In this document: positions 1,611 to 18,446 of the stretch, piece after piece
Numbering within the stretch: the stretch's first letter is position 1
How the letters are laid out: every line of letters starts with the position of its first letter
IMG/VR virus record: IMGVR_UViG_2648501563_000006
Location: 1 to 37,917 of that record
DNA from: a virus
Reading direction: 5' to 3' (one strand)
Length of the DNA stretch: 37,917 nt
Program-made: the position numbers and the translations under genes
The notes under the pieces: model-generated
What the model was told of the DNA's origin: nothing
Database searches by the model: none
The model's input: the letters and a program-made list of their open reading frames with translations, nothing else

Positions 1611-4600
1611 ATGCACCAAGACCTTTCACAACAAGCCTATTGTCAATCGGTAGGTACAAACTCGACCAATTATCCTGTCATCGATAAAAGAAATCCAACA
1701 GTAAATGACATATATTATCCTATTGGAAAGTTTTGGATTAATCAGACTGGCCCAAATCAAAGCTTATGGTATCTAAATTCGCTTTCTAATGCTACAGGTA
1801 CACTACAAGCACTTTGGATACCTATTTCTATTGAGACAGTATTAGCCACATTATCAGATACCGGCAATGCAAATATCGTCCCTCCCTCTTTAAGTAGCGC
1901 GAGTCCTCCAGATAATATCCAAATTATTGGTGGAACAGGTATAACTGTTGTAGGAAATGCGTCTAATAATAGTTTAACCATTACAAATACTTCTGGAGCT
2001 GCTGAGACACTAACCGGTAACGATGGTGTTGCCGTATCCGCTTCGGGTGGAACTATTCAAACTCTTGGTAATGTTGTTGCAAGCGGAACACATTCGGGAT
2101 ATCCTCTATACACATTCAATCCATCTAGTAATATTGAACAATGGGATATTCAAGTTGCATCTGCAATATCATCGACAAATATTGATTTAACCGGATTAGC
2201 AGCATTCAACAATACTCAGTTCGCCGTAGATTCTAATGGTTTTGTAACTTTGTACGGTGGTTCCGGTGCTCCGACATTGGGTATTACTCCAAATGCGCAT
2301 ACATCACCCGGCACTTCTCCTGTAGTACCAAATGCAAGTGGGGACATAATTATAGAAGGTGGAGCTACTTTTGCCACCGGAACACAAGCCAATCCAATAA
2401 GAACCAATTCTCTTGCTGCTAATACTATAGATCTACAAATACAATTAGCTGGTTCCCATGCAGCCACATCCACAGCAAATGATTTTGGTGTAGCTCAATT
2501 TGACTCTAATTCATTTGGTGTCACTAGTGGTTTTGTCACATTGAAAAATGGTGGCACAACAGGCGCGGTTACTTCTGTTATTGGAGATGATTCTAATCCT
2601 GTTGTACCAGCTTCTGGTGCTATTACTTTTGAAGGAACCGTTGTTGCTAATGCTACTAATGCTAAACCTGTTTATTTTCTTAAAGGCGCAACTAGCACTG
2701 AAGAACTAGAAGTTCAACTCACTACAACTAGCACATCAGGCTCGAAAAACATCAATAATGCCGGTCTAGCCTCATTTGATAGCGCTGCTTTTACAGTAGA
2801 TTCAGCTACTGGTTTCGTATCTCTAGTAGGAGGATCAGCTCCTGCGGTAGAGACATTAACCGGTAATACTGGTGGGGCAATTAGTCCATCATCCGGAAAT
2901 ATTGGAACTGTTGGAACTGGTAGTATCACAATTGTAGGATCTGGACATACTCTTACAACTGAATTAACAGGTTTAACTCAATATGATATTTTAGTTGGAC
3001 AAGGAAGTACAACGATAGGTTTAGTGGTTCCTTCGGCAACATCTGGTGTACCATTAATTTCCCAGGGATCTTCAAGCTATCCGGTATTTGGGACTGCCGT
3101 AGTAGCAGGAGGTGGTACAGGTGCCACAACTCTTACGGGTGTTTTGATCGGTAATGGAACATCTGCTATCACTGGAAATGCGATTACACAATATGATGTC
3201 TTGGTTGGGGGCGCTTCTAATGCTATTACTTCGATTTCACCAAGCACATCTGGATATGTTTTAACATCCAATGGCCCTGGAGAAAATCCGACATTTCAAG
3301 CAGTAGGAGCTTCTTCAATAACTCTTGATGGCGATTCAGGTTCAGCTAGTGGATCTACGATAACGATCAGTGGCGGAACATCAGGATTAACAACTACAGC
3401 TACAATAGCTACAATGGATATTACCGGTACTCTTAACGTATCCCACGGAGGAACGGGAGCTACTACACTTACAGGAGTGCTTACAGGTAATGGCACATCA
3501 GCTATTACAGCCAGTTCTGTCACGCAATACGATGTTTTAGTTGGTGGTGCTTCTAATGCGATTTCATCTGTAGGTCCTGGAACTTCAGGACAAGTATTGC
3601 AATCAGGAGGCGGAAGCGGTAATCCTGCTTATTCAACAGCTACATATCCTTCTAGCACGACAGTGAATCAAATACTTTATTCCTCTTCAAATAATACGAT
3701 TGCGGGTCTCGCAACAGGAAATAATGGTGTTTTAATCACTTCATCGGGTGGCGTTCCTTCTATTCTAGCAGACGGTACCACGGGTCAAGTTCTTACTGCC
3801 ACAACAGGTTCTCCTCCATCTTGGACAAGCATTAGTGTTACTGGGATCAGTACATTGGATGGTGATTCAGGTTCGTGTACCGGTTCAACCGTGACAATAT
3901 CAGGTGGAAGTACTGGTCTCACTACTTCAGCTTCATCCGCTACAATGGATCTAACAGGAACTTTAAATGTTGGACATGGCGGTACAGGTGATACTTCATT
4001 TACAGCTTATAGTGTAATTTGCGGTGGCACTACATCTACAGGTGCTTTACAAAACGTTTCTGGTCTAGGAACTTCCGGTTATGTTCTTACAAGTAATGGA
4101 CCGGGAGAGCTACCTAGTTGGCAGAACGCCGGTGATAATGCCCTCGCAATTACTATGGACGCTGGAACTTCGCCTATATCTCCTTCTTCCGGAGCTTTAG
4201 TATTTACAGGTGCACAAGTTGCTAGTGGTGTCGTAGGAACAAATGTAATACGCACAGATGGTTCTGCATCTAATACTATGACTCTTCAGATACAGAGATC
4301 AACTACAGCAGGATCATCAACTGTATCAGATAATGGAGTTTGTCATTTTAGTAGCACAGAGTTTAGCGTAGATTCTAATGGTTTTGTGACATCAAATAAT
4401 ATTACGCTTGTAGCCGGCACAGGAATAACTTTAAGTCCTAGCACCGGATTAGTTACACTCGGTGGAAGCATCACAATATCTTCAACAGGATCTGCCCTAT
4501 TTAATTACAAGAATGTGAATCATGGTTCCAGCCCTTATACAGTATTATCTACAGATCAATATTTATCTGTAGACTGTTCTGGGGGAACAGTAACATTGGA

Positions 4601-7081: not shown

Positions 7082-7930
7082 TTAATCATTTTCTAACCTA
7101 TACATTTCTATTGGTGTTTTTCTGTATTTTTCTAAGTCTATTTCTTTCAATTCGGGTATCGCTTTATAATCAATAGATCCTTTTCGTACTATTTTCGACA
7201 GTTTTATACCGCCCCCCTTGCAATTTGACTTTCCAGACATACATATGAGACTGCTTCTCAAATCTTCTTCCTCTTTTTCCAATTGCGTCATTTGATTTTT
7301 TATCTGTTTCCATTTTGCAGCTGTCTCTATCCATATATCATCTTCTTTCTGTATAAAATCTCTTTCTATCATTCTAGGAGCTGTTAAATTCTGTACACAA
7401 TCATAGAATTCAACCTCTTTACAGATCATATTTTTGATATATGATTCATCTCTGTTGACTACTATCACTTTCGATGAGTTATCACTGTAACTGAAATAAT
7501 AAGCTTTGTCAAGTTCACAAATAGCCATCTGATGTTGTAATTGTGGGAAATACTTCTCCGGTATATTGCCGGATAGGGCTATTTCATGATCCACTTTTCC
7601 GGGACATTTTATTTCTACGATATTTTTTCCTTCAATATCAATGCCATCTAAGCTTGCCATCATCCATTCATGTTCTTTATGGAAGAGTACCTGTGGAAAA
7701 ACCACCAATCCTGTTTCCTTTTCAAAAGCTTTCCTAGCGCTTTCTTCCATTTCTAAACCTCGTTTCATCGCTGATGATGAAAAGGATTCTTTTAATCCTA
7801 GTTTTTCTTCCCAGAGTTGATAAGGGGTCTTCCACGGGCTTACATGCATAATAACAGGCGCATCCGATGCGCCTATTTTATTTTTTCTTAACTCTAACCA
7901 CTCATTAGATTGTTGAATTAAAGCGCTCAT
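7082..7930 (-). CDS. YqaJ / lambda-Exo-like recombination exonuclease
   Basis: N-terminal W..LR...IGASDAPVIMHVSPWKTPYQLWEEKLG, then ASLDG and EIKCP motifs characteristic of the YqaJ viral recombinase family. Adjacent to recT. Confidence 0.85.
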   Translation of the reverse strand: MSALIQQSNEWLELRKNKIGASDAPVIMHVSPWKTPYQLWEEKLGLKESFSSSAMKRGLEMEESARKAFEKETGLVVFPQVLFHKEHEWMMASLDGIDIEGKNIVEIKCPGKVDHEIALSGNIPEKYFPQLQHQMAICELDKAYYFSYSDNSSKVIVVNRDESYIKNMICKEVEFYDCVQNLTAPRMIERDFIQKEDDIWIETAAKWKQIKNQMTQLEKEEEDLRSSLICMSGKSNCKGGGIKLSKIVRKGSIDYKAIPELKEIDLEKYRKTPIEMYRLEND

Positions 7931-7931
7931 T

Positions 7932-8735
7932 TTATGCCTCCATCGCTACTGATTCTAATACCATATCTTCTTTACCCATAGCCTTCAAAAATGCTTCTTC
8001 TTTCTTCTTGATAGCTGCATTTTTTACTCTATCATAAAATGCAACAGGTAGTTCGTAGAGAGAATTTGCATTAATAGGGTGTTTCTTTATGAAATTCATA
8101 ACGGTTTCTTGATATTCTACTTCGCAATCACCAAGAATTTCAATAAGAGTGTCCGCCATTTCTTTGGAGATTATCTCTACCACGGATTCTTCTCTATGTG
8201 TTGGAGCGTGATTATTGTTTTTTATTTCAATCAGTTCTTCGTGTGTATATCCGGCCCCCTTAATTACATCAGGAAATAATTGACGCGCTAACATAGACAT
8301 CGCTCTATTGTAAAGCATAATGCTAGGATATTTCTCATACATATTCTTGGCCAATCCGGCTCTCTTAGCATCATCCCATGAAAAAGTTATTGTCCAAGTG
8401 TCTCCGTTATCACATCTCTTTCCATGTAAAATGCATATCGTATTATCCGATTTAGGATCTTTTATAATGCTGTGTCCTTTCTGACGTATTAAAGACGCCA
8501 TCATTTCAGATGACATTCCTACTTTGCCTTGTACGTAATAAAGTCCACCATTCAACGCCTCTAAAGGATGAATATTCAAAGATTTGGCTTTCTGCACTAT
8601 GGCAAACAATCCTGCTTCACCCATCGATTGAAAATGTTTTGTCTTCATTAATGTTGAACACATGTTTGTCATCGTATCTACGTCTTTCAAAATAGTATCA
8701 AAACAAACTTCTTCTCTAATTGCTAATGTATTCAT
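7932..8735 (-). CDS. recT: RecT-family single-strand annealing protein
   Basis: Size, synteny with the exonuclease, and RecT-like central region (YYVQGKVGMSSEMMASLIRQKGHSI ... MLYNRAMSMLARQLFPD). Confidence 0.7.
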   Translation of the reverse strand: MNTLAIREEVCFDTILKDVDTMTNMCSTLMKTKHFQSMGEAGLFAIVQKAKSLNIHPLEALNGGLYYVQGKVGMSSEMMASLIRQKGHSIIKDPKSDNTICILHGKRCDNGDTWTITFSWDDAKRAGLAKNMYEKYPSIMLYNRAMSMLARQLFPDVIKGAGYTHEELIEIKNNNHAPTHREESVVEIISKEMADTLIEILGDCEVEYQETVMNFIKKHPINANSLYELPVAFYDRVKNAAIKKKEEAFLKAMGKEDMVLESVAMEA

Positions 8736-9336: not shown

Positions 9337-9576
9337 ATGGATCTATATGATTACTATTATACGATGAAAAAAACTACCGGTTTAACCATGAGTGAGTTTG
9401 CTGCACAACTTAAATGTACGAGAGCTCATGTTCAAGGATTGATCGACGGATCGAGACATCCAAGCTTCAATATGGCTCAAAAAATTGAAGAAGTTACGAG
9501 AGGCCAGGTAAAAAAATGGGAAGCGATAAAATGGGCATGCGATTGCTATGATCGTAAGAACAATATAAATCAATGA
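9337..9576 (+). CDS. Cro/CI-type helix-turn-helix regulator (alternative start 9319)
   Basis: ggagg lies 6 nt upstream of ATG 9337. HTH segment LTMSEFAAQLKCTRAHVQGLIDG. Confidence 0.7.
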   Translation: MDLYDYYYTMKKTTGLTMSEFAAQLKCTRAHVQGLIDGSRHPSFNMAQKIEEVTRGQVKKWEAIKWACDCYDRKNNINQ

Positions 9577-9630
9577 GATTTATCTTTAAAAAAATGTCTG
9601 GCAAGTGATAAAACGTGTATTTAAAAAAAT

Positions 9631-9652
9631 GCCTCGATCTTATGACCGAGGC
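9631..9652 (-). terminator. GC-rich hairpin whose U-run lies on the - strand
   Basis: GCCTCG-atcttatgac-CGAGGC, preceded on the + strand by A7 (a T-run downstream when read on the - strand). Confidence 0.35.
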
Positions 9653-9734
9653 TAAACCAAATATCTTTACCTCGCACCTAATCCAACCACGGAAATGCAA
9701 GATAAAAACAAAATTAAGCAAAGTATGCTCAATT

Positions 9735-9804
9735 AAGGAAACCCAATGAAGGAAATCCAATGAAGGAAATCCAATGAAGGAGGCCCAATGAAGGAGGCCC
9801 AATT
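9735..9804. repeat. five tandem 14-nt repeats (AAGGARRYCCAATG)
   Basis: Read directly: aaggaaacccaatg, aaggaaatccaatg x2, aaggaggcccaatg, aaggaggcccaatt. Confidence 0.9.
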
Positions 9805-9833
9805 TATAAGCAAAGGAGGACCAATAATGGTGG

Positions 9834-10020
9834 ATAAGAATCACACAATTAAGGAGGCCCAATTTATACGAACAAAAACCTCGAGAAGTGTGCATAAGAA
9901 TCGCACAATTAAGGAGGGTAACAAAAACAAAAACCTCAAGAAGTGTGCATAAGAATCGCACAATTAAGGAGGGTAACAAAGACAAAAACCTCAAGAAGTG
10001 AGGTGTGAATAAGAATCGAA
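9834..10020. repeat. three and a fraction 55-60-nt direct repeats (iteron-like)
   Basis: Units start at 9834, 9894, 9949 and 10009: ataagaatcRcacaattaaggagg...aaaaacctcRagaagtg. Confidence 0.85.
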
Positions 10021-10064
10021 TCGAATCGAATCTAATCAATTCTTTTCTTTTCTTTTCTTTTCTT
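10013..10064. repeat. simple pentamer tracts (GAATC)x4 and (TCTTT)x4
   Basis: gaatcgaatcgaatcgaatc at 10013-10032; tctttx4 at 10041-10060. Confidence 0.9.
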
Positions 10065-10158
10065 CTCTCCGCCCTTGTTGTTTTTAGGCAATGTTATGAA
10101 TAAAGTGTATAAGTAATAACAATTTATTGCAAGTTTTATCTGCAAAAAAAGGAAAGAA

Positions 10159-13633: not shown

Positions 13634-14161
13634 ATGGCACCACCTAAAGGAATGAAATACGCTCTTGGTTGTACTACTGGAGGTAGACCTTCAAAATATA
13701 ACCTCGATAAAGAAGCTGAAGACCTATTGAGATTCGTCTCAAAAGATGATTGCTTGGCTCTCGAAGACTTCACTCACACTAAGCCCTACTTGGCCTCAGA
13801 GCTCTGTGAGTTCGCTAGAAGGTCAGATAATTTCTCCGCAGCCCTAAAGAAGGCCAAGGAGATCATTGGGAGGCGTAGAGAGCATATGGTGAGTACCGGA
13901 AAGATGAACTACGGGGTATGGTATAGGTCTGCAAGGCTCTACAGCAAGATTTTGATGCTTGATGAAGAGAATGTAAAAGATCTTGATATGGAAAGAAAAA
14001 TGAAATTGATAGATCATGAAGTAAAAAAACGTGCTGAAACCGCATCTACAATCACAGAAGACTTTATAAACCAGTATAAAGGCCTTATGAATCAACTTTC
14101 TGCATTGCAATCAAATCGTAATATAGCTGACAACAAGATCAAAGATGCAACCAAGTCATAA
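13634..14161 (+). CDS. terS: terminase small subunit-like DNA-binding protein
   Basis: N-terminal GGRPSKYNLDKEAEDLL....D..ALEDF...KPYLASELCEFARRSDNFSAALKKAK is the usual TerS HTH architecture. Located upstream of terL. Confidence 0.5.
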   Translation: MAPPKGMKYALGCTTGGRPSKYNLDKEAEDLLRFVSKDDCLALEDFTHTKPYLASELCEFARRSDNFSAALKKAKEIIGRRREHMVSTGKMNYGVWYRSARLYSKILMLDEENVKDLDMERKMKLIDHEVKKRAETASTITEDFINQYKGLMNQLSALQSNRNIADNKIKDATKS

Positions 14162-14505
14162 TGAGACACAGGTTGTGACATAGCCATTTGTGGAAGCTTC
14201 TCATAGTTCTCAATCATAACTTCCAATTCTTTTAAAAGATCCCTCTTAGTAAGTTTAGGAGGGGTAATTTCTTCGCTCTTAACATTTTCTTTAACTTCAG
14301 TTTGTTCTACTATTTTTGGAATAATCTCGTTACCTTCATCGTCAACACGAATAAAATTGTTCCAATTGCCTGAAGTTACACCACAACGAAAATAATCATT
14401 TCCGCCATCAACAACAACTTCACCACATTTGCAAGTCACATAATCGTGTCTATGAAAGCTTTCAATAACATCCTGGCATAATTTGCATTTGGCTCTATTT
14501 CTCAT
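14092..14505 (-). CDS. zinc-ribbon protein (137 aa)
   Basis: CKLC...H.H.....CKCG motifs. The convergent 3' end overlaps the TerS-like ORF by 70 nt. Confidence 0.5.
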   Translation of the reverse strand: MRNRAKCKLCQDVIESFHRHDYVTCKCGEVVVDGGNDYFRCGVTSGNWNNFIRVDDEGNEIIPKIVEQTEVKENVKSEEITPPKLTKRDLLKELEVMIENYEKLPQMAMSQPVSHYDLVASLILLSAILRFDCNAES

Positions 14506-14715: not shown

Positions 14716-14913
14716 ATGAACTCTATCTCAGAAGAGGTTAGAATGACGTTGCTAGAATATATACAGACCACAAAAATTACAATCAAGAAGTTTTCGGATC
14801 AGTTGGGGTATACTCGCACGCATATAAGTAGAGTCATACATAATAAAACAGGTTTATCGAATAAACTTAAGAATCAAATATATATTATAACTAATGGCCA
14901 AGTAAATCTATGA
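14716..14913 (+). CDS. small HTH DNA-binding protein (alternative start 14743, preceded by gagg)
   Basis: ITIKKFSDQLGYTRTHISRVIHNKTG is a canonical HTH. Paralogous in layout to 9337..9576. Confidence 0.6.
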   Translation: MNSISEEVRMTLLEYIQTTKITIKKFSDQLGYTRTHISRVIHNKTGLSNKLKNQIYIITNGQVNL

Positions 14914-16199
14914 CAGCTCCCTTATCTCCCAAACAACTAGAATTCGTGCTCAATAGCACCGCTAAATGGAATCTTGCCCACGGATCTGTTAGAACGGGAA
15001 AGACAATTGGCACATTGTTTGCTTTTCTTCATGCATGTCATAATTGTCCCGATGGTGATATATACATGGTAGGGCACAGTTCTAATACTATTTATGAAAA
15101 TGCTATCAAGTTGATCTTTGATAGTCCTCAGTTTGCCATTTTTAGACCATTCTGCACTTGGTCTCCAGGAAATAGGATTCTCACATTTCAAGACAAGAAG
15201 ATAAAAGCATATGGAGCAGCGGACGAAGGTGCTATAGGTAACTTCCAAGGTAAGACGATGTCTCTTGTTTATTGCGATGAGATTACTTTATATCCACAAT
15301 CTATTATAGAGATGATAGATAGCCGATTGAGTAATACGCATAGCCGTGGATTTGCATCAATGAATCCAACATATCCTGATCATATAGTTAAGAAATGGAT
15401 AGATGCGGGTATGGAAGGAGATAAGAACTATTATTCTCTTCACTTCACACTCGACGATAATCCATTTGTGGATGATGATTATAAAGAAAGACTCAGAAAG
15501 AACACCACAGGGTTATTTTACAAAAGAAACTATCTTGGATTATGGTGTCTAGCTGAAGGCGCTATATTCGACTTTTTTGACCCACAGATACATGTAACTA
15601 AGAACCCTCCTCGAGCAGCTGAATATTGGATTGCTTCCATAGATTATGGGATCTCTAATGCTTTTGCTTGTTTGCTAATTGGCGTATCAACAGGAATGAG
15701 TAATCAAACAGGAAAGAGGCTATGGGTAGAGAAGGAATACTATTGGGATAGTAAAGTTGAGGGAAGGCAGAAACTTAATAGCGAACTAGCTAATGATGTG
15801 GCCGATATGCTCGAACCTTATGCGGTGAGAGCTATATATATAGACCCAAGCGCTTCCTCAATGAAAGTAGAGTTGAGAAGACGAGGAATGCACATCGTTG
15901 ATGCAGACAATGACGTATATAACGGTATAGAAAAGATGTGTAACGAAATGAAAATAGGTAATCTTTATATCCTAAGAGGTTGCAAAAACTTGATTAAAGA
16001 GATTCAGAATTACGTTTGGGACACAAAAAAGAGTAAGATGGGAGAAGATTCGCCTGTGAAAAAAGGAGACCATGCTATCGATGCATTGCGTTATGCAATT
16101 TACACACACAAAGTACAAATCTATAATCCCTTTCAGACAAAACACAATTCTGATGATTACATGAATTCAAGGTTCAATCATGGTACGAGACGCTTTTAG
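14910..16199 (+). CDS. terL: terminase large subunit
   Basis: Walker A GSVRTGKT, Walker B LVYCDEI, and a C-terminal nuclease region (IDYG....., GDHAIDALRYA). Confidence 0.9.
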   Translation: MTAPLSPKQLEFVLNSTAKWNLAHGSVRTGKTIGTLFAFLHACHNCPDGDIYMVGHSSNTIYENAIKLIFDSPQFAIFRPFCTWSPGNRILTFQDKKIKAYGAADEGAIGNFQGKTMSLVYCDEITLYPQSIIEMIDSRLSNTHSRGFASMNPTYPDHIVKKWIDAGMEGDKNYYSLHFTLDDNPFVDDDYKERLRKNTTGLFYKRNYLGLWCLAEGAIFDFFDPQIHVTKNPPRAAEYWIASIDYGISNAFACLLIGVSTGMSNQTGKRLWVEKEYYWDSKVEGRQKLNSELANDVADMLEPYAVRAIYIDPSASSMKVELRRRGMHIVDADNDVYNGIEKMCNEMKIGNLYILRGCKNLIKEIQNYVWDTKKSKMGEDSPVKKGDHAIDALRYAIYTHKVQIYNPFQTKHNSDDYMNSRFNHGTRRF

Positions 16200-16283
16200 T
16201 CAAAAAAGCACAACCTAACTCACCCCAACAAACCCGAACCAAACTAAACTCATCCGAACTCACCCAAACTTAACGTAACAAAA
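16200..16283. repeat. C/A-rich, G-poor spacer
   Basis: About 84 nt with only 4 G by my count (acctaactcaccccaacaaacccgaaccaaactaaactcatccgaactcacccaaac). Confidence 0.7.
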
Positions 16284-16712
16284 TTACTCTATAAGATAGA
16301 CTTTCGTCTCTTTAATTAGCAGCTTTGACTTTCTATTCAATGTTTGAACTAGATTTAAGCTGTGAATAAATTCATTTCTGCATTTCTTGTCTGTAATTTT
16401 ATCGATATCTATCTTAGACATTATCTTTTCTGTTGTTTTAATGCCTCTTTGGAATTTATTAGCCCTTTTTCTTGATTCATATCCTGACTGATTCTCTGAA
16501 TATATTTTTAAAGATCCTAACTCAGTTTTACAAAAATGACCTTTATCTTGCAATTCTTCCCTTAAAGCCATCAGGTCAAGCCTATAATCTTTAGATTCAA
16601 AATCACTATTTCTAAAGATCTTTGCAAGAACAACTCTATCAATATATCCTGCATCAATATATCCATTCTCAGAAAGAAATTTGTATATATCACTATACTC
16701 GTTTTTTTTCAT
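16284..16712 (-). CDS. hypothetical protein (142 aa), cassette gene 1
   Basis: ORF antisense to the late operon. No recognisable motif. Confidence 0.5.
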   Translation of the reverse strand: MKKNEYSDIYKFLSENGYIDAGYIDRVVLAKIFRNSDFESKDYRLDLMALREELQDKGHFCKTELGSLKIYSENQSGYESRKRANKFQRGIKTTEKIMSKIDIDKITDKKCRNEFIHSLNLVQTLNRKSKLLIKETKVYLIE

Positions 16713-16805
16713 ACATCCCTATCTTTTAATTTAAACGAAACCAAACTTACCTCAACCAAACCAAACGTACCTTAACTAAACCCACCTCAACGCAACTTAA
16801 TGATC
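16713..16805. repeat. second C/A-rich, G-poor spacer
   Basis: aaacgaaaccaaacttacctcaaccaaaccaaacgtaccttaactaaacccacctcaacgcaac. Same composition and short motifs as 16200-16283. Confidence 0.7.
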
Positions 16806-17423
16806 TCATTCTTGGAATGAAATCAGTTCAAACTTTCCGTAGCTACCAGTGGCTCTTTCGGGTCTCAGTTCGCATAGCCCATACTCATAGCCAGCTGTTT
16901 CGATAATTGTCTGTAACTCTTGTTCAGGTAGCAATTCAGTATCTAGGAATAAACCAAACTTCACTTCCCATTTGTGAAAAATTGGTCTTGTCCTCATGAT
17001 TCTAGCCATACCAACAACAACATTTTCAATGAAAACATAAGGTCTTTCACCTGATTTGTTGGTTTCATTATAGAGATAATCGATGTCTTTGCCTTTAAAT
17101 GGGATCAATGGATATCCAATCGGTTCATCTAGAATGATAGCCTTGGTCTGTCTTCCTTTCTTGAACTTCTTGGCAGAAGATTTGATACAGCCTTGAAGAC
17201 ATTTGGAAGGCATATATATACCTAGATTTTCATCATAGTACATAGACGCTTCAAATTCAATTCTTGACAGTGCCAAATGGTGTTCGTCTGTCTTCTTCTT
17301 AATACAAGTAATCTCCTTCATTTTTTTGGTGATAGGATGGAGTGGATTGCAAGCTTTATCGCAGTGCATGATTAATGGAGTGATTCCTTTGATATGGACA
17401 TTGTATTTCTTAATGTTATTCAT
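16806..17423 (-). CDS. hypothetical protein (205 aa), cassette gene 2
   Basis: ORF. The motifs GITPLIMH ... RTRPIFHKWEVKF ... AGYEYGLCELRPE...GSYGKFEL look like a conserved phage family that I cannot name. Confidence 0.55.
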   Translation of the reverse strand: MNNIKKYNVHIKGITPLIMHCDKACNPLHPITKKMKEITCIKKKTDEHHLALSRIEFEASMYYDENLGIYMPSKCLQGCIKSSAKKFKKGRQTKAIILDEPIGYPLIPFKGKDIDYLYNETNKSGERPYVFIENVVVGMARIMRTRPIFHKWEVKFGLFLDTELLPEQELQTIIETAGYEYGLCELRPERATGSYGKFELISFQE

Positions 17424-17566
17424 GGTTACCTCATTTGAAAATACATACCATAAAAAAATACTCTCATTTAGTCAACATATATTTTTTTATTGATTCATAT
17501 ATTTTCTTGTGTTAGCATTTTGTATTAGCAGGCATACCTAGAAGGCACTTAAAAAGCAAGATTAGT

Positions 17567-17706
17567 GAAGATTCGCCTGTGAAAAAAGGAGACCATGCTA
17601 TCGTGAAATTTACACACACAAAGTCTCTATTTATGACCCATACAAGCAAAATGAGAATCAAAAAGCTTGGTTAAAAGATAAATATACAATAACAAGAAAC
17701 ATGTAA
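17567..17706 (+). pseudogene. decayed duplicate of the terL 3' end
   Basis: 17567-17603 is identical to 16044-16080, and 17607-17624 to 16097-16114. Sixteen nt are replaced by 3 nt, which shifts the frame. The shifted frame reads IYTHKVSIYDPYKQNENQKAWLKDKYTITRNM*, against the TerL end IYTHKVQIYNPFQTKHNSDDYMNSRFNHGTRRF*. Confidence 0.75.
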
Positions 17707-17715
17707 GAGGTCATC

Positions 17716-17796
17716 ATGACATGGTGTGAAGCATTTCTTTATGCAATAATTGCGATGTGTGTAACAAATATCATTAAAAGCGTGTGGTTTAAATGA
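17716..17796 (+). CDS. small hydrophobic peptide (26 aa)
   Basis: gagg upstream. MTWCEAFLYAIIAMCVTNIIKSVWFK. ATGA overlap with the next ORF. Confidence 0.3.
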   Translation: MTWCEAFLYAIIAMCVTNIIKSVWFK

Positions 17797-17999
17797 ATAA
17801 TATCGAACATTATGATCAAGAACTCGTAGGTTATGACAATATTTCAACGAATTTAATCATGAGAAAATTCAAACTCAATGAGACGAAAGCGGAAGAAATA
17901 TACGATCAATTGCAAGAAATACGTTATGGAAGACACGTAAAAGAGCAGGTTAAATTTTTTAATCGTATTGACAAATTAAGAAAAACAAAAATCAATTAA
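17793..17999 (+). CDS. hypothetical protein (68 aa)
   Basis: ORF track; translationally coupled start. Confidence 0.45.
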   Translation: MNNIEHYDQELVGYDNISTNLIMRKFKLNETKAEEIYDQLQEIRYGRHVKEQVKFFNRIDKLRKTKIN

Positions 18000-18087
18000 A
18001 TAGTTTACAAAAGTGTCAAATTTCAAACATAATGATGATTATCAGACGTTGAATAATTAATAGCAACCCACAGAGTAAAGGAATACA

Positions 18088-18363
18088 ATGATTAAATTTG
18101 AGTTTTATGAACCGGCCAACTTACAACAACAAGAAATTGAATCTTTATGGCTACAAGACATTAATATGGATAATTGGGATTACATGTTATTTTTTGAAAA
18201 TGAACACGATTTCAGTATAGATAATGAAATATTTAAACTTGTTGTTCACCCGAAAAATTTCAACGTAGGAAACTTATTATCGGGTTGTTGTGCCAATATT
18301 TGGTATCCGGTAAAAAATTTCCGTGGTCGCAAGGGAATAATCGGTATTGCATATCATTCTTAA
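18088..18363 (+). CDS. hypothetical protein (91 aa)
   Basis: ORF track; aagga upstream. Confidence 0.45.
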   Translation: MIKFEFYEPANLQQQEIESLWLQDINMDNWDYMLFFENEHDFSIDNEIFKLVVHPKNFNVGNLLSGCCANIWYPVKNFRGRKGIIGIAYHS

Positions 18364-18446
18364 TAAAGAACAATTTCCATATTTGCCATAATAAAATATT
18401 TAGTATATCTTTTTTTCAAGGGATATTCGTTATATTTGGAGGCAAC

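What the first reader, a model, noticed from the sequence alone, without database searches (positions are those of the whole stretch)
16044..17706. A two-gene antisense cassette sits between terL and a decayed second copy of the terL 3' end
SEEN:
- The 37 nt at 16044-16080, inside terL, recur exactly at 17567-17603.
- The 18 nt at 16097-16114 recur at 17607-17624.
- In the downstream copy 16 nt are replaced by 3 nt, which breaks the frame.
- In the shifted frame the downstream copy still encodes a diverged TerL C-terminus: IYTHKVSIYDPYKQNENQKAWLKDKYTITRNM*, against IYTHKVQIYNPFQTKHNSDDYMNSRFNHGTRRF*.
- Between the copies lie two - strand ORFs (142 and 205 aa), each bounded by G-poor C/A-rich spacers.
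INFERENCE:
- The cassette arrived by recombination within the terL 3' end. It carried a replacement 3' end and displaced the original one. Islands that target gene 3' ends and restore them behave this way.
- The cargo genes are of unknown function. They are candidates for host-interaction (defence or counter-defence) morons.
Basis: partly seen in the sequence, partly recalled or inferred. Interest (0 to 1): 0.65.

Follow-up and report, generated by a model that had tools for sequence, protein, structure and literature searches.

The report
Phage VIPR guide-RNA cassette behind terL
The two antisense genes wedged between the phage's large terminase gene and a leftover copy of its 3' end are a VIPR system: a small CRISPR-like protein, a helper protein and two guide RNAs built from 5-base repeats, a kind of phage-versus-phage weapon first described in 2026, which here seems to have arrived by recombination inside the terminase gene.

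Summary
A 53-nt direct repeat with a 37-nt exact core brackets a 1.5-kb antisense insert, and a frame-shifted terL 3' end lies downstream.

Fourteen of 70 related phages have terL almost abutting the portal gene. The relic tail best matches the tail of the closest TerL relative (L001). The intact tail is of a different lineage type.

The 205-aa protein is a Cas7/Csm3-like RAMP. It is 33% identical (E 6e-39) to the experimentally characterised Vipr of phage SUSP1.

The "C/A-rich spacers" are, on the cassette's sense strand, 13 and 14 tandem G(U/G)U-NN pentamers. These are vrRNA guides. The 142-aa protein is a vap-like partner.

Such arrays occur next to vipr homologues from many bacterial phyla. 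Among the ~120 loci checked, only one array lacked a vipr nearby.

In near-clonal strains of this phage, essentially all differences lie in the arrays: mostly NN changes, plus gain or loss of whole pentamers.

No target was found.

Verdict: a new member of the recently described VIPR kind. It has a GUU rather than GGY repeat, and a clear insertion footprint in a terL–portal hotspot.

The parts
14910..16199 (+). terL, large terminase subunit, 429 aa and intact. Its last ~39 codons (from 16081) are the incoming replacement tail.
   Evidence: Pfam Terminase_6N and Terminase_6C; phrog_2 at E 2e-50. 80% identical to L001 TerL.
16028..16080 (+). Left copy of the direct repeat. The 37-nt exact core is 16044-16080, the inferred crossover zone.
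   Evidence: two exact copies, none expected by chance.
16081..16199 (+). Replacement terL 3' tail (...DALRYAIYTHKVQIYNPFQTKHNSDDYMNSRFNHGTRRF*), of a different lineage type from the closest relative's tail.
   Evidence: best tail matches are L026, L006 and L035 at 16/30; only 11/30 to L001.
16210..16279 (-). vrRNA-B repeat tract, 14 pentamers G[U/G]U+NN. NN = AC AA TG GA CG GA TA TG CG TT GG GA AG GT. It is followed by the small hairpin GCTTTT-TTGACT-AAAAGC, which overlaps the terL stop codon.
   Evidence: Strain L129 carries a 30-nt (6-unit) insertion here.
16284..16712 (-). vap-like accessory gene, 142 aa. The model shows a winged-helix-like N-terminal part and a long helical hairpin.
   Evidence: A homologue lies directly downstream of vipr in L027, L048, L051, L081, L082 and L131. 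The profile search found 96 homologues, one named wHTH by JGI. hhalign to SUSP1 vap1 gives 39% probability, E 3e-4, colinear. AF2 pLDDT 86, with no significant PDB match.
16732..16796 (-). vrRNA-A repeat tract, 13 pentamers. NN = GC GA GG TA AA AC TG TG GA AA TG TC TA. It runs up to the vap ribosome-binding site.
   Evidence: Strains L123, L126 and L129 differ here by substitutions, mostly at NN positions, and by loss of one 5-nt unit.
16806..17423 (-). vipr, a 205-aa single-RRM RAMP resembling Cas7/Csm3.
   Evidence: phrog_4652 at E 5e-45. AF2 pLDDT 93. The top 50 PDB fold hits are all Csm3, Cmr4 or type VII Cas7. 33% identity, E 6e-39, to SUSP1 Vipr.
17424..17550 (-). AT-rich region upstream of vipr with a promoter-like site, TTGACT-17-TATGGT, at 17475->17447. 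It holds no pentamer array.
   Evidence: the site count is not above shuffles, so this is only a candidate. Sequence read.
17551..17603 (+). Right copy of the direct repeat, with the exact core at 17567-17603.
17604..17706 (+). Displaced, frame-shifted original terL 3' tail (13-nt net deletion; IYTHKVSIYDPYKQNENQKAWLKDKYTITRNM*).
   Evidence: best match is the TerL tail of L001, 19/29 aa and 72% nt over 93 nt.
17716..17796 (+). 26-aa ORF that follows the relic. By eye it resembles the 29-aa ORF that lies ~160 nt downstream of the terL stop in L001; not tested by alignment. It marks the original downstream flank.
   Evidence: MTWCEAFLYAIIAMCVTNIIKSVWFK against L001 MIMKWPEALVCCMLIYSIAEIIKCLLEVI.

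Best explanation
Window 16200-17550 is a compact VIPR (Viral Interference Programmable Repeat) system, carried antisense in the hypervariable terL-portal junction of a ~38-40 kb phage with a P22-like portal.

**Shown here**
- The 205-aa protein is a Vipr-family RAMP.
- The 142-aa gene is the conserved partner found directly downstream of vipr.
- The two intergenic tracts are tandem G(U/G)U-NN pentamers on the operon's sense strand, with uninformative NN positions.
- These tracts are the only hypervariable part of the locus among strains.

**Inferred from the published SUSP1 and P. fulva work**
- The tracts are transcribed and processed into two vrRNAs.
- One Vipr protomer binds each pentamer. 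It sequesters the conserved triplet and presents the NN pair.
- The filament pairs with double-stranded DNA of the form NNxNNx..., about 38 and 41 bp here. This represses transcription in a competing phage, satellite or prophage, with the vap protein enhancing the effect.

**How it got here (inferred)**
- A DNA segment carrying a ~180-nt foreign terL 3' end plus the cassette recombined with the resident terL inside the 37-nt identical core. The event was a single-crossover or unequal-crossover type of insertion.
- The foreign tail now completes terL, and the native tail was pushed 1.5 kb downstream, where it has since lost 13 nt.
- The phage's own YqaJ-type exonuclease module could promote such short-homology recombination.
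For: **Fold**
- AF2 model with pLDDT 93.
- All top-50 PDB hits are Csm3, Cmr4 or type VII Cas7, E 5e-6 to 7e-4.
- BFVD hits include a protein named 'Cas system-associated RAMP superfamily protein'.

**Homology to the characterised Vipr**
- 33% identity over 197 aa, E 6e-39, to SUSP1 agp039. That locus has the same layout of vipr, a 146-aa gene and long repeat-bearing intergenic regions.
- 130 phage records match at about 35%.
- The SUSP1 RNA/DNA-contact residues H17, K33, R138 and R179 align with H20, K36, R146 and R187.

**Arrays**
- Pentamer logo: G 0.94, T 0.85, T 0.99, then 0.07 and 0.02 bits at the NN positions.
- In the terL-family and p205 loci (L001-L082) plus the window, arrays lie only in vipr-bearing loci, bar one orphan array in L074. 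They are always on vipr's sense strand, including L027 where the cassette is inverted. Shuffles gave none.
- 5-nt-periodic arrays also lie next to distant vipr homologues in Nitrospirales, Omnitrophota, Myxococcales, Methylobacterium, Bradyrhizobium and a phage NAD-gene cluster.

**Microdiversity**
- 21 difference events in 1098 array nt, against 1 real event in about 24 kb of flanks, across 8 near-identical contigs.
- The indels are 5 nt and 30 nt.

**Literature**
- The VIPR definition, the 1-nt skip rule and the cryo-EM structures come from bioRxiv 10.64898/2026.04.26.720920 and 10.64898/2026.04.26.720927.

**Insertion**
- Repeat; empty sites; tail affinities; YqaJ.
- Recurrent terL relics in L011, L051 and L072.
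Against: - The conserved triplet is GUU (position 2 is U in 85% of units, G in 9%), not the published GGY.
- The residue that stacks on G2 in SUSP1 (W178) is Leu here, and D177 is Glu. The code may therefore differ in detail.
- The window's two vrRNAs share no structured 3' tail, and their folds are not better than shuffles.
- No natural target was found. Nothing scored above background in the window or in 118 loci. Six collection scans gave only chance-level hits.
- Expression, processing and RNP formation are untested. The promoter-like site is not above chance.
- The vap link to SUSP1 vap1 is weak: hhalign 39%, and BLASTP not significant.
- TerL tail types are mosaic across the family, so calling the relic 'native' rests on topology plus one best match.
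- Both VIPR papers are preprints.
Confidence: 0.8

Rival explanations
1. A site-specific integrative island. The cassette is a small mobile element that targets the terL 3' end through a dedicated recombinase and restores it, as tRNA- or gene-3'-end-targeting islands do. The two genes are morons of unknown function.
For: Direct repeats flank the insert, and the gene's 3' end is restored. The vipr cassette also sits just downstream of terL in a second, distant phage family: L081 and L082, with TerL only 37-38% identical.
Against: - The 1.5-kb insert has only two ORFs, and neither is a recombinase.
- The cassette sits elsewhere in L131, on the other side of the portal gene.
- It occurs in both orientations.
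- terL 3' relics accompany other cargo in L011, L051 and L072.
- The repeat has diverged flanks around an identical core, as homologous crossover gives, rather than a sharply bounded att core.
Confidence: 0.05
2. A local tandem duplication of the terL 3' end, followed by drift. The cassette was inserted separately between the copies, and no foreign terL tail was ever imported.
For: The two copies share 53 nt at 91% identity plus an 18-nt block.
Against: - Beyond the shared blocks the two tails belong to different tail types found in different relatives: 19/29 to L001 for the relic, 16/30 to L026, L006 and L035 for the intact tail.
- A perfect 37-nt core next to 5/16 mismatches and an unalignable tail is a crossover signature, not uniform drift.
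Confidence: 0.05
3. The locus is VIPR-related but works differently from the published type II systems. The GUU clade might use another skip rule, bind RNA rather than DNA, or act as a decoy or regulator of the phage's own genes. Alternatively the system is decaying here.
For: - GUU replaces GGY, and W178 is Leu.
- No shared 3' tail.
- No target under the 1-nt skip rule, and skip rules 0, 1 and 2 were indistinguishable from shuffles on the sequence held locally.
- An orphan GTTNN array lies after the portal gene of L074, with no vipr in the DNA held.
Against: - Both ORFs are intact and identical across eight contigs from several samples.
- The arrays keep the triplet and vary almost only at NN positions and by whole units, which is what a working guide under diversifying selection should show.
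- Key contact residues are conserved.
- The local target search had little power: about 1.3 Mb searched locally, and exact-match scans only.
Confidence: 0.12
4. The C/A-rich tracts act on the + strand, as Rho-utilisation sites, insulators or plain low-complexity spacers in the late transcript. They are unrelated to the antisense genes.
For: They are C-rich and G-poor on the strand of terL and portal.
Against: - Their strand follows vipr, not the late operon. In L027, L081 and L082 they are G/T-rich on the terL strand.
- They have a strict 5-nt register with two unconstrained positions.
- They accompany vipr homologues in unrelated genomes, with GGA, GGC or GGT triplets.
Confidence: 0.02

Closest known systems
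VIPR systems, closest to type II as exemplified by Escherichia phage SUSP1 and a Pseudomonas fulva prophage (bioRxiv 10.64898/2026.04.26.720920; structures in 10.64898/2026.04.26.720927)
   Same: - A ~200-aa single-RRM RAMP, 33% identical to SUSP1 Vipr.
- A ~145-aa downstream partner gene, possibly winged-helix.
- Guides of 13-14 tandem pentamers with a conserved triplet and a free NN pair, within the published 9-16 range.
- Phage-encoded, with no cas genes and no CRISPR array.
- No self-target.
   Different: - The triplet is GUU (G, U>G, U) instead of GGY.
- The G2-stacking Trp is Leu, and the G1-contacting Asp is Glu.
- The arrays run straight into the next gene's ribosome-binding site or into the terL stop codon, with no conserved pseudoknotted tail.
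- One vrRNA lies between vipr and vap and one after vap. SUSP1 has one upstream and three downstream.
- The locus lies antisense in a structural-gene hotspot rather than among early or replication genes.
- Type assignment by phylogeny was not done.
CRISPR-Cas class 1 backbone subunits (Csm3, Cmr4, Cas7 of types III and VII; Csf2 of type IV)
   Same: RRM core, glycine-rich loop (RPERATGSYGKF) and thumb hairpin. These are the best structural matches. Oligomerisation along a guide RNA with periodic base flipping is the published parallel.
   Different: - TM-scores are only 0.45-0.52, and sequence identity is about 10-16%.
- The period is 5 nt rather than 6 nt.
- There is no repeat-spacer array, no Cas10, Cas11, Cas5 or Cas6, and no adaptation genes.
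- PADLOC found nothing.
Integrative islands and prophages that insert into, and rebuild, the 3' end of a tRNA or protein gene
   Same: The insert is flanked by direct repeats. The gene is completed by element-borne sequence, and the displaced original 3' end remains downstream.
   Different: There is no integrase. The repeat looks like a homologous-recombination crossover, with an identical core and diverged flanks. The same kind of relic occurs with unrelated cargo in the same hotspot.
Moron or accessory-gene hotspots between conserved phage structural genes
   Same: The terL-portal interval ranges from about 60 nt to 5 kb among 70 relatives, with different cargo in each.
   Different: Here the exchange point lies inside the terL coding sequence. 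Each swap can therefore also replace the variable C-terminal tail of the terminase.

Membership tests
VIPR system | Vipr protein: a small (~20 kDa) RAMP with a single RRM core, a glycine-rich loop and a thumb | tested here: met
   205 aa. AF2 pLDDT 93, with a beta-alpha-beta core, a beta-hairpin at 130-149 and a C-terminal RPERATGSYGKF loop. The top 50 PDB fold hits are all Csm3, Cmr4 or Cas7.
VIPR system | Sequence homology to an experimentally characterised Vipr | tested here: met
   BLASTP against SUSP1 agp039 (NC_028808 28474-29061): 33% identity over 197 aa, E 6e-39. I assigned that gene as SUSP1's Vipr from the locus layout and repeats.
VIPR system | Residues that hold the conserved triplet and the skip base in the SUSP1 cryo-EM structures (H17, K33, R138, D177, W178, R179) | tested here: inconclusive
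   The aligned residues are H20, K36, R146, E185, L186 and R187. Four are identical, Asp becomes Glu, and Trp becomes Leu. The changed residues contact G1 and G2; position 2 of the repeat is U here.
VIPR system | vrRNA: 9-16 tandem pentamers next to vipr, with a conserved triplet (GGY or a related consensus) alternating with hypervariable NN | tested here: met
   13 and 14 units. The triplet is G/U>G/U at 1.6, 1.2 and 1.95 bits, and the NN positions carry 0.07 and 0.02 bits. The arrays are unique in the window. NN positions vary between strains. The consensus is GUU rather than GGY.
VIPR system | A conserved, structured 3' tail capping each vrRNA | tested here: inconclusive
   The two window arrays share no tail, and their folds are not better than shuffles (z -1.5 and -0.3). 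vrRNA-B is followed by a 6-bp hairpin. Relatives L082, L027 and L106 do have repeated motifs, some hairpin-forming, punctuating their arrays.
VIPR system | A minimal locus: vipr plus one vap gene, with no CRISPR array and no other cas genes | tested here: met
   There are two ORFs only. Neither has a significant Pfam hit, and NCBIfam and PADLOC gave none at all. The order vipr then ~140-156-aa gene is conserved in 9 loci.
VIPR system | A vap protein with a DNA-interaction fold (winged-helix-like in type II) | tested here: inconclusive
   The AF2 model (pLDDT 86) shows helices plus a beta-hairpin wing, then a long helical hairpin. Foldseek's best E-value is 0.25. hhalign to SUSP1 vap1 gives 39% probability, E 3e-4. 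One homologue is named wHTH by JGI.
VIPR system | No self-targeting, and natural targets in competing mobile elements under the 1-nt skip rule (at least 80% NN match) | tested here: inconclusive
   No self-target: the best window scores are 18/26 and 18/28. No external target: the hits in IMG/VR and metagenomes (22/26, 20/28, 22/28, 22/26) extend no better than chance beyond the exact window used for the scan.
VIPR system | vrRNAs are expressed and co-purify with Vipr; programmable repression of DNA targets | not testable with these tools
   This needs small-RNA sequencing, pull-down and reporter assays.
CRISPR-Cas (type III or IV) | A repeat-spacer array and further cas genes (Cas10 or Csf1, Cas5, Cas6, Cas11) | tested here: not met
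   No CRISPR-type repeats were found, PADLOC and NCBIfam gave no hits for the two cassette proteins, and Pfam gave no Cas family for them or the flanking ORFs tested. Rfam found nothing.
Integrase-mediated island targeting a gene's 3' end | An element-encoded tyrosine or serine recombinase, with identical att cores at both ends | tested here: not met
   The insert has no recombinase. A 37-nt identical core exists, but it has homologous, diverged flanks, and similar relics lie next to unrelated cargo.

The most novel reading that the evidence does not exclude
**Focused diversification of the guides.** vrRNA tracts may be diversified in situ by a focused process: unit slippage, exchange between arrays, or targeted mutagenesis of the NN positions. 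That would give VIPR a primitive way of acquiring new specificities without Cas1.
- In eight otherwise clonal contigs of this phage, 21 of 22 real differences fall in 135 nt of array.
- Most are NN substitutions. There is also one 5-nt loss and one 30-nt gain.

**A different code in the GUU clade.** The change at repeat position 2 (G to U), together with Trp to Leu at the G2-stacking residue, may mark a VIPR lineage whose recognition code differs in detail from the published GGY rule.
Probability: 0.2. Interest if true: 0.8.

Novelty: new member of a known kind. Interest (0 to 1): 0.55.

Why it matters
VIPR was described only in 2026. It is proposed to be both the ancestor of CRISPR RAMP effectors and a minimal programmable DNA binder. 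This locus adds four things.

- **A natural variant of the repeat code.** The triplet is GUU instead of GGY, and the residues that hold G1 and G2 in the published structures are changed. This can be used to test how the protein reads the triplet.
- **Population evidence of guide evolution.** Within one phage lineage the guides change fast and almost exclusively at the NN positions and by whole units.
- **A clear footprint of how a VIPR cassette moves between phages.** It recombined inside the terL 3' end, in a terL-portal hotspot that also swaps the terminase C-terminal tail.
- **Spread beyond the published set.** The loci fetched here show the module in uncultivated phages and in prophage-like loci across many phyla.

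For genome annotation the lesson is practical. G-poor 'spacers' with a 5-nt period next to a ~200-aa hypothetical protein should be read as guide RNAs.

Tried and rejected
- **DNA search of 14900-18400 against GenBank phages:** no match.
- **Family searches for the two proteins:** Pfam, NCBIfam and PADLOC gave nothing significant. PHROGs gave only phrog_4652, of unknown function.
- **Rfam on 15800-18300:** nothing.
- **Early ideas for the periodic tracts:** I considered Rho-utilisation sites, bent DNA, iterons, and TRAP- or CsrA-type protein sponges. I dropped them once the strand was seen to follow vipr and the VIPR papers were found.
- **Target search:**
  - Window and 118 loci, skip rules 0 to 3 plus shuffles: no enrichment. 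The skip-3 'hits' are the arrays themselves.
  - Four IMG/VR scans with exact 9-unit windows and two metagenome scans with 10-unit windows gave 0, 1, 1, 3 (one sequence found in three samples), 0 and 1 hits.
  - Outside the selected part these hits extended at 4/8, 2/10, 4/10 and 2/6, which is chance level.
- **Word-indexed search with the 142-aa protein alone:** found only itself. A profile built from locus-derived homologues was needed.
- **BLASTP of the 142-aa protein against SUSP1 vap1:** not significant.
- **Foldseek of the vap model against the PDB:** nothing significant.
- **Contig L128:** it appears to join the repeat core to the relic-side flank. It is a scaffold with N runs and ends 18 nt past the core, so I treat this as an assembly artefact and not as evidence of an excised circle.
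- **Promoter and terminator scans:** counts are not above shuffles.

Full report
**1. The observation**

- The 37-mer at 16044-16080 recurs exactly at 17567-17603. Shuffled windows gave no match.
- With flanks, the repeat is 53 nt at 91% identity.
- After the core, the downstream copy has TGA in place of 16 nt. It then shares 18 nt (16097-16114 = 17607-17624).
- From there it encodes, in a shifted frame, IYTHKVSIYDPYKQNENQKAWLKDKYTITRNM*.
- Between the copies lie two minus-strand ORFs of 142 aa (16284-16712) and 205 aa (16806-17423).
- On its own strand, each ORF is followed by a tract that is G-poor on the + strand.

**2. What the 'spacers' are**

The repeat finder reported a 10-nt period. 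Reading longer examples in relatives showed the true unit is 5 nt.
- On the sense strand of the two genes the tracts read GTTNN, repeated.
- In the window there are 13 units at 16796->16732 and 14 units at 16279->16210.
- I pooled 24 arrays from the window and five relatives. Positions 1-3 are G (0.94), T (0.85; G 0.09) and T (0.99). Positions 4-5 carry 0.07 and 0.02 bits. The arrays were selected by a G[GT]T rule, which inflates the first three values but not the contrast with positions 4-5.
- A 28-nt pentamer pattern hits only these two tracts in the whole window. None is expected by chance.

**3. What the 205-aa protein is**

- Sequence libraries gave only an unnamed phage family, phrog_4652.
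- Their alignment shows the motifs PLIMH, RIMRTRPxFxxW and GLC(D/E)xRP...G.YGRF.
- The AlphaFold model is confident, with pLDDT 93.
- Its 50 best PDB matches are all Csm3, Cmr4 or type VII Cas7 backbone subunits (E 5e-6 to 7e-4, TM about 0.45-0.52).
- Viral matches include a protein annotated as a Cas-associated RAMP.

**4. The protein and the repeats travel together**

- Of the 80 terL relatives listed (of 154 found), three carry a homologue of the 205-aa protein (L027, L048, L051). So do L081 and L082, from a phage family with only 37-38% TerL identity.
- Pentamer arrays lie in exactly these loci, plus one orphan array in L074. They are always on the sense strand of the gene, including L027 where the cassette is inverted relative to terL. 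Shuffled loci gave none.
- A distant homologue (36% identity) sits in a large phage's NAD-salvage gene cluster. It is followed by a GGTNN array and a 156-aa gene.
- A scan of 185,579 species genomes found 32 loci across Nitrospirales, Clostridia, Methylobacterium, Bradyrhizobium, Nitrobacter, Omnitrophota, Planctomycetota, Myxococcales and others.
- About a dozen of these loci have 5-nt-periodic arrays directly flanking the gene. The triplets are GGA or GGC.

**5. Identification**

A full-text search found two 2026 preprints from one group. They describe exactly this architecture as VIPR. According to them:
- Vipr is a ~20-kDa ancestral RAMP, accompanied by a vap accessory gene.
- vrRNAs are made of 9-16 tandem GGY-NN pentamers.
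- One protomer binds each repeat and sequesters the triplet.
- The NN pairs base-pair with double-stranded DNA that has one skipped base per repeat.
- The outcome is transcriptional repression of competing phages, satellites or prophages.

I located the SUSP1 locus in GenBank (NC_028808: agp039 of 195 aa, agp038 of 146 aa, and repeat-bearing intergenic regions). Direct comparison gave these results:
- The window protein is 33% identical to SUSP1 Vipr over 197 aa, E 6e-39.
- Of the SUSP1 residues reported to contact G1, G2, Y3 and the skip-base phosphate, H17, K33, R138 and R179 align with identical residues.
- D177 aligns with Glu, and W178, which stacks on G2, aligns with Leu.
- That change fits position 2 of the repeat being U here. 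However, other clades with GGT repeats have Gly or Ser at that position, so I treat the correlation as a lead only.

**6. The 142-aa protein**

- Alone it finds only itself in the word-indexed search.
- Homologues sit directly downstream of vipr in L027, L048, L051, L081, L082 and L131. Longer 156-aa relatives sit there in L083 and L088.
- A profile search finds 96 proteins, one of them named a winged-helix DNA-binding protein by JGI.
- The profile aligns colinearly but weakly with SUSP1 vap1 (39% probability, E 3e-4).
- The model (pLDDT 86) shows a winged-helix-like N-terminal part and a long helical hairpin, but has no significant PDB match.
- It is best called a vap-like partner. Its function is inferred, not shown.

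**7. Guide microevolution**

- Eight contigs from several samples of one ENA project carry the identical 142-aa protein. They are 97.4-100% identical to the window over the cassette.
- All real differences but one lie in the two arrays: 21 events in 1098 aligned array nt, against 1 in about 24 kb elsewhere. Six further 'differences' are scaffold artefacts in L128.
- Three alleles exist. They differ by substitutions, six of the seven sites at NN positions. They also differ by loss of one 5-nt unit in vrRNA-A and gain of 30 nt (six units) in vrRNA-B.
- The events are not all independent. L123 and L126 share an allele.

**8. Targets**

- Under the 1-nt skip rule there is no self-target in the window.
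- There is no target in the ~1.3 Mb of related DNA held, and the skip rules did not differ from shuffles there.
- Exact-window scans of IMG/VR and JGI metagenomes returned only a handful of hits. Their matches outside the selected window were at chance level.
- The target is therefore unknown.

**9. How the cassette got there**

- The terL-portal interval is a hotspot. Among 70 relatives it spans about 59 to 5052 nt, and 14 are effectively empty.
- L001, the closest TerL relative (80%), has terL followed by small ORFs. One is a 29-aa ORF that by eye resembles the window's 26-aa ORF at 17716. The p91 homologue and the portal gene follow.
- The relic tail matches L001's tail best (19/29 aa; 72% nt over 93 nt). 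The intact tail matches a different tail type found in relatives whose TerL is only 63-66% identical.
- The repeat has 5 mismatches in its first 16 nt, then 37 identical nt, then divergent tails.
- This is the pattern expected if a segment carrying a foreign terL 3' fragment plus the cassette crossed over with the resident gene inside the identical core. The foreign tail would then be joined to the resident gene body, and the native tail displaced downstream.
- The element encodes no recombinase.
- The phage has a YqaJ-type exonuclease (7082-7930) next to an unassigned 267-aa gene. It also has RusA. These could support short-homology recombination, but that is inference.
- terL 3' relics also lie downstream of terL in L011, L051 and L072, next to cargo other than VIPR. 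The mechanism therefore belongs to the hotspot, not to VIPR.
- In L131 a 79%-identical vipr sits on the other side of the portal gene.

**10. Verdict**

- The cargo is a member of the VIPR kind, known since 2026. It has a GUU rather than GGY repeat and an unusually clear insertion footprint.
- Unshown: expression, RNP formation, the recognition rule in this clade, the target, and the exact recombination pathway.

Noticed in passing
L074 6484-6545: About 12 GTTNN pentamers (GTTGC GTTAA GTTAT GTTTA GTTGC ...) lie just after the portal stop codon of a related phage. No vipr homologue is present in the 9.2 kb held. This could be an orphan guide, perhaps using another phage's Vipr or acting as a decoy.
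   Followed up: partly
window 10010-10072: Simple tandem pentamers (GAATC)x4 then (TTTTC)x5 lie at the 5' end of the minus-strand ORF 9494-10039 and in the region just upstream of it. They are not of the G-K-T/NN type, and their role is unknown.
   Followed up: no
L051 7207-7292 vs 8307-8392; L011 7227-7288 vs 7499-7560; L072 2779-2810 vs 2989-3020: Other relatives also carry a second, diverged copy of the terL 3' end downstream of terL. In L051 the copy is followed by a paralogue of the gene that follows the intact terL (MAPQLMKM...). Recombination inside the terL 3' end is therefore recurrent in this hotspot.
   Followed up: partly
L009 6856-7185: A second fragment of terL (residues 56-165, 71% identical to the window's TerL) lies about 750 nt downstream of the intact terL.
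   Followed up: no
L083 5593-15317 (also L084, L085): A distant vipr-array-vap module is embedded in a large phage's cluster of NAD-related genes: NAMPT, ribose-phosphate pyrophosphokinase, NAD synthase, SIR2, Macro and isochorismatase-family genes.
   Followed up: no
L106 1-430 and 1010-1260; L082 6600-7810; L027 2800-3290: Long arrays in relatives are punctuated by conserved motifs, giving a CRISPR-like alternation of constant and variable segments. Examples are the hairpin GGTGCGCCAC-TGTGAAAG-GTGACGCACC in L106 and CCTTAAAGTTATGTAAATTCCT in L082. These may be the vrRNA tails or processing sites.
   Followed up: partly
L128 2141-2194: This contig joins the cassette-side terL tail and repeat core to the flank of the relic copy, as an excised circle or tandem copy would. 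It is a scaffold with N runs and ends 18 nt past the core, so an assembly artefact is more likely.
   Followed up: partly
window 14092-14505 (-): A DUF7695 gene (E 2e-19) lies antisense between the putative small terminase gene (13634-14161) and terL, overlapping the small terminase ORF's last ~70 nt. It is conserved in that position in most relatives.
   Followed up: no
L131 5001-6872: A vipr 79% identical to the window's lies on the other side of the portal gene, followed by two ~150-aa genes. The cassette therefore occupies different hotspots in related phages.
   Followed up: partly
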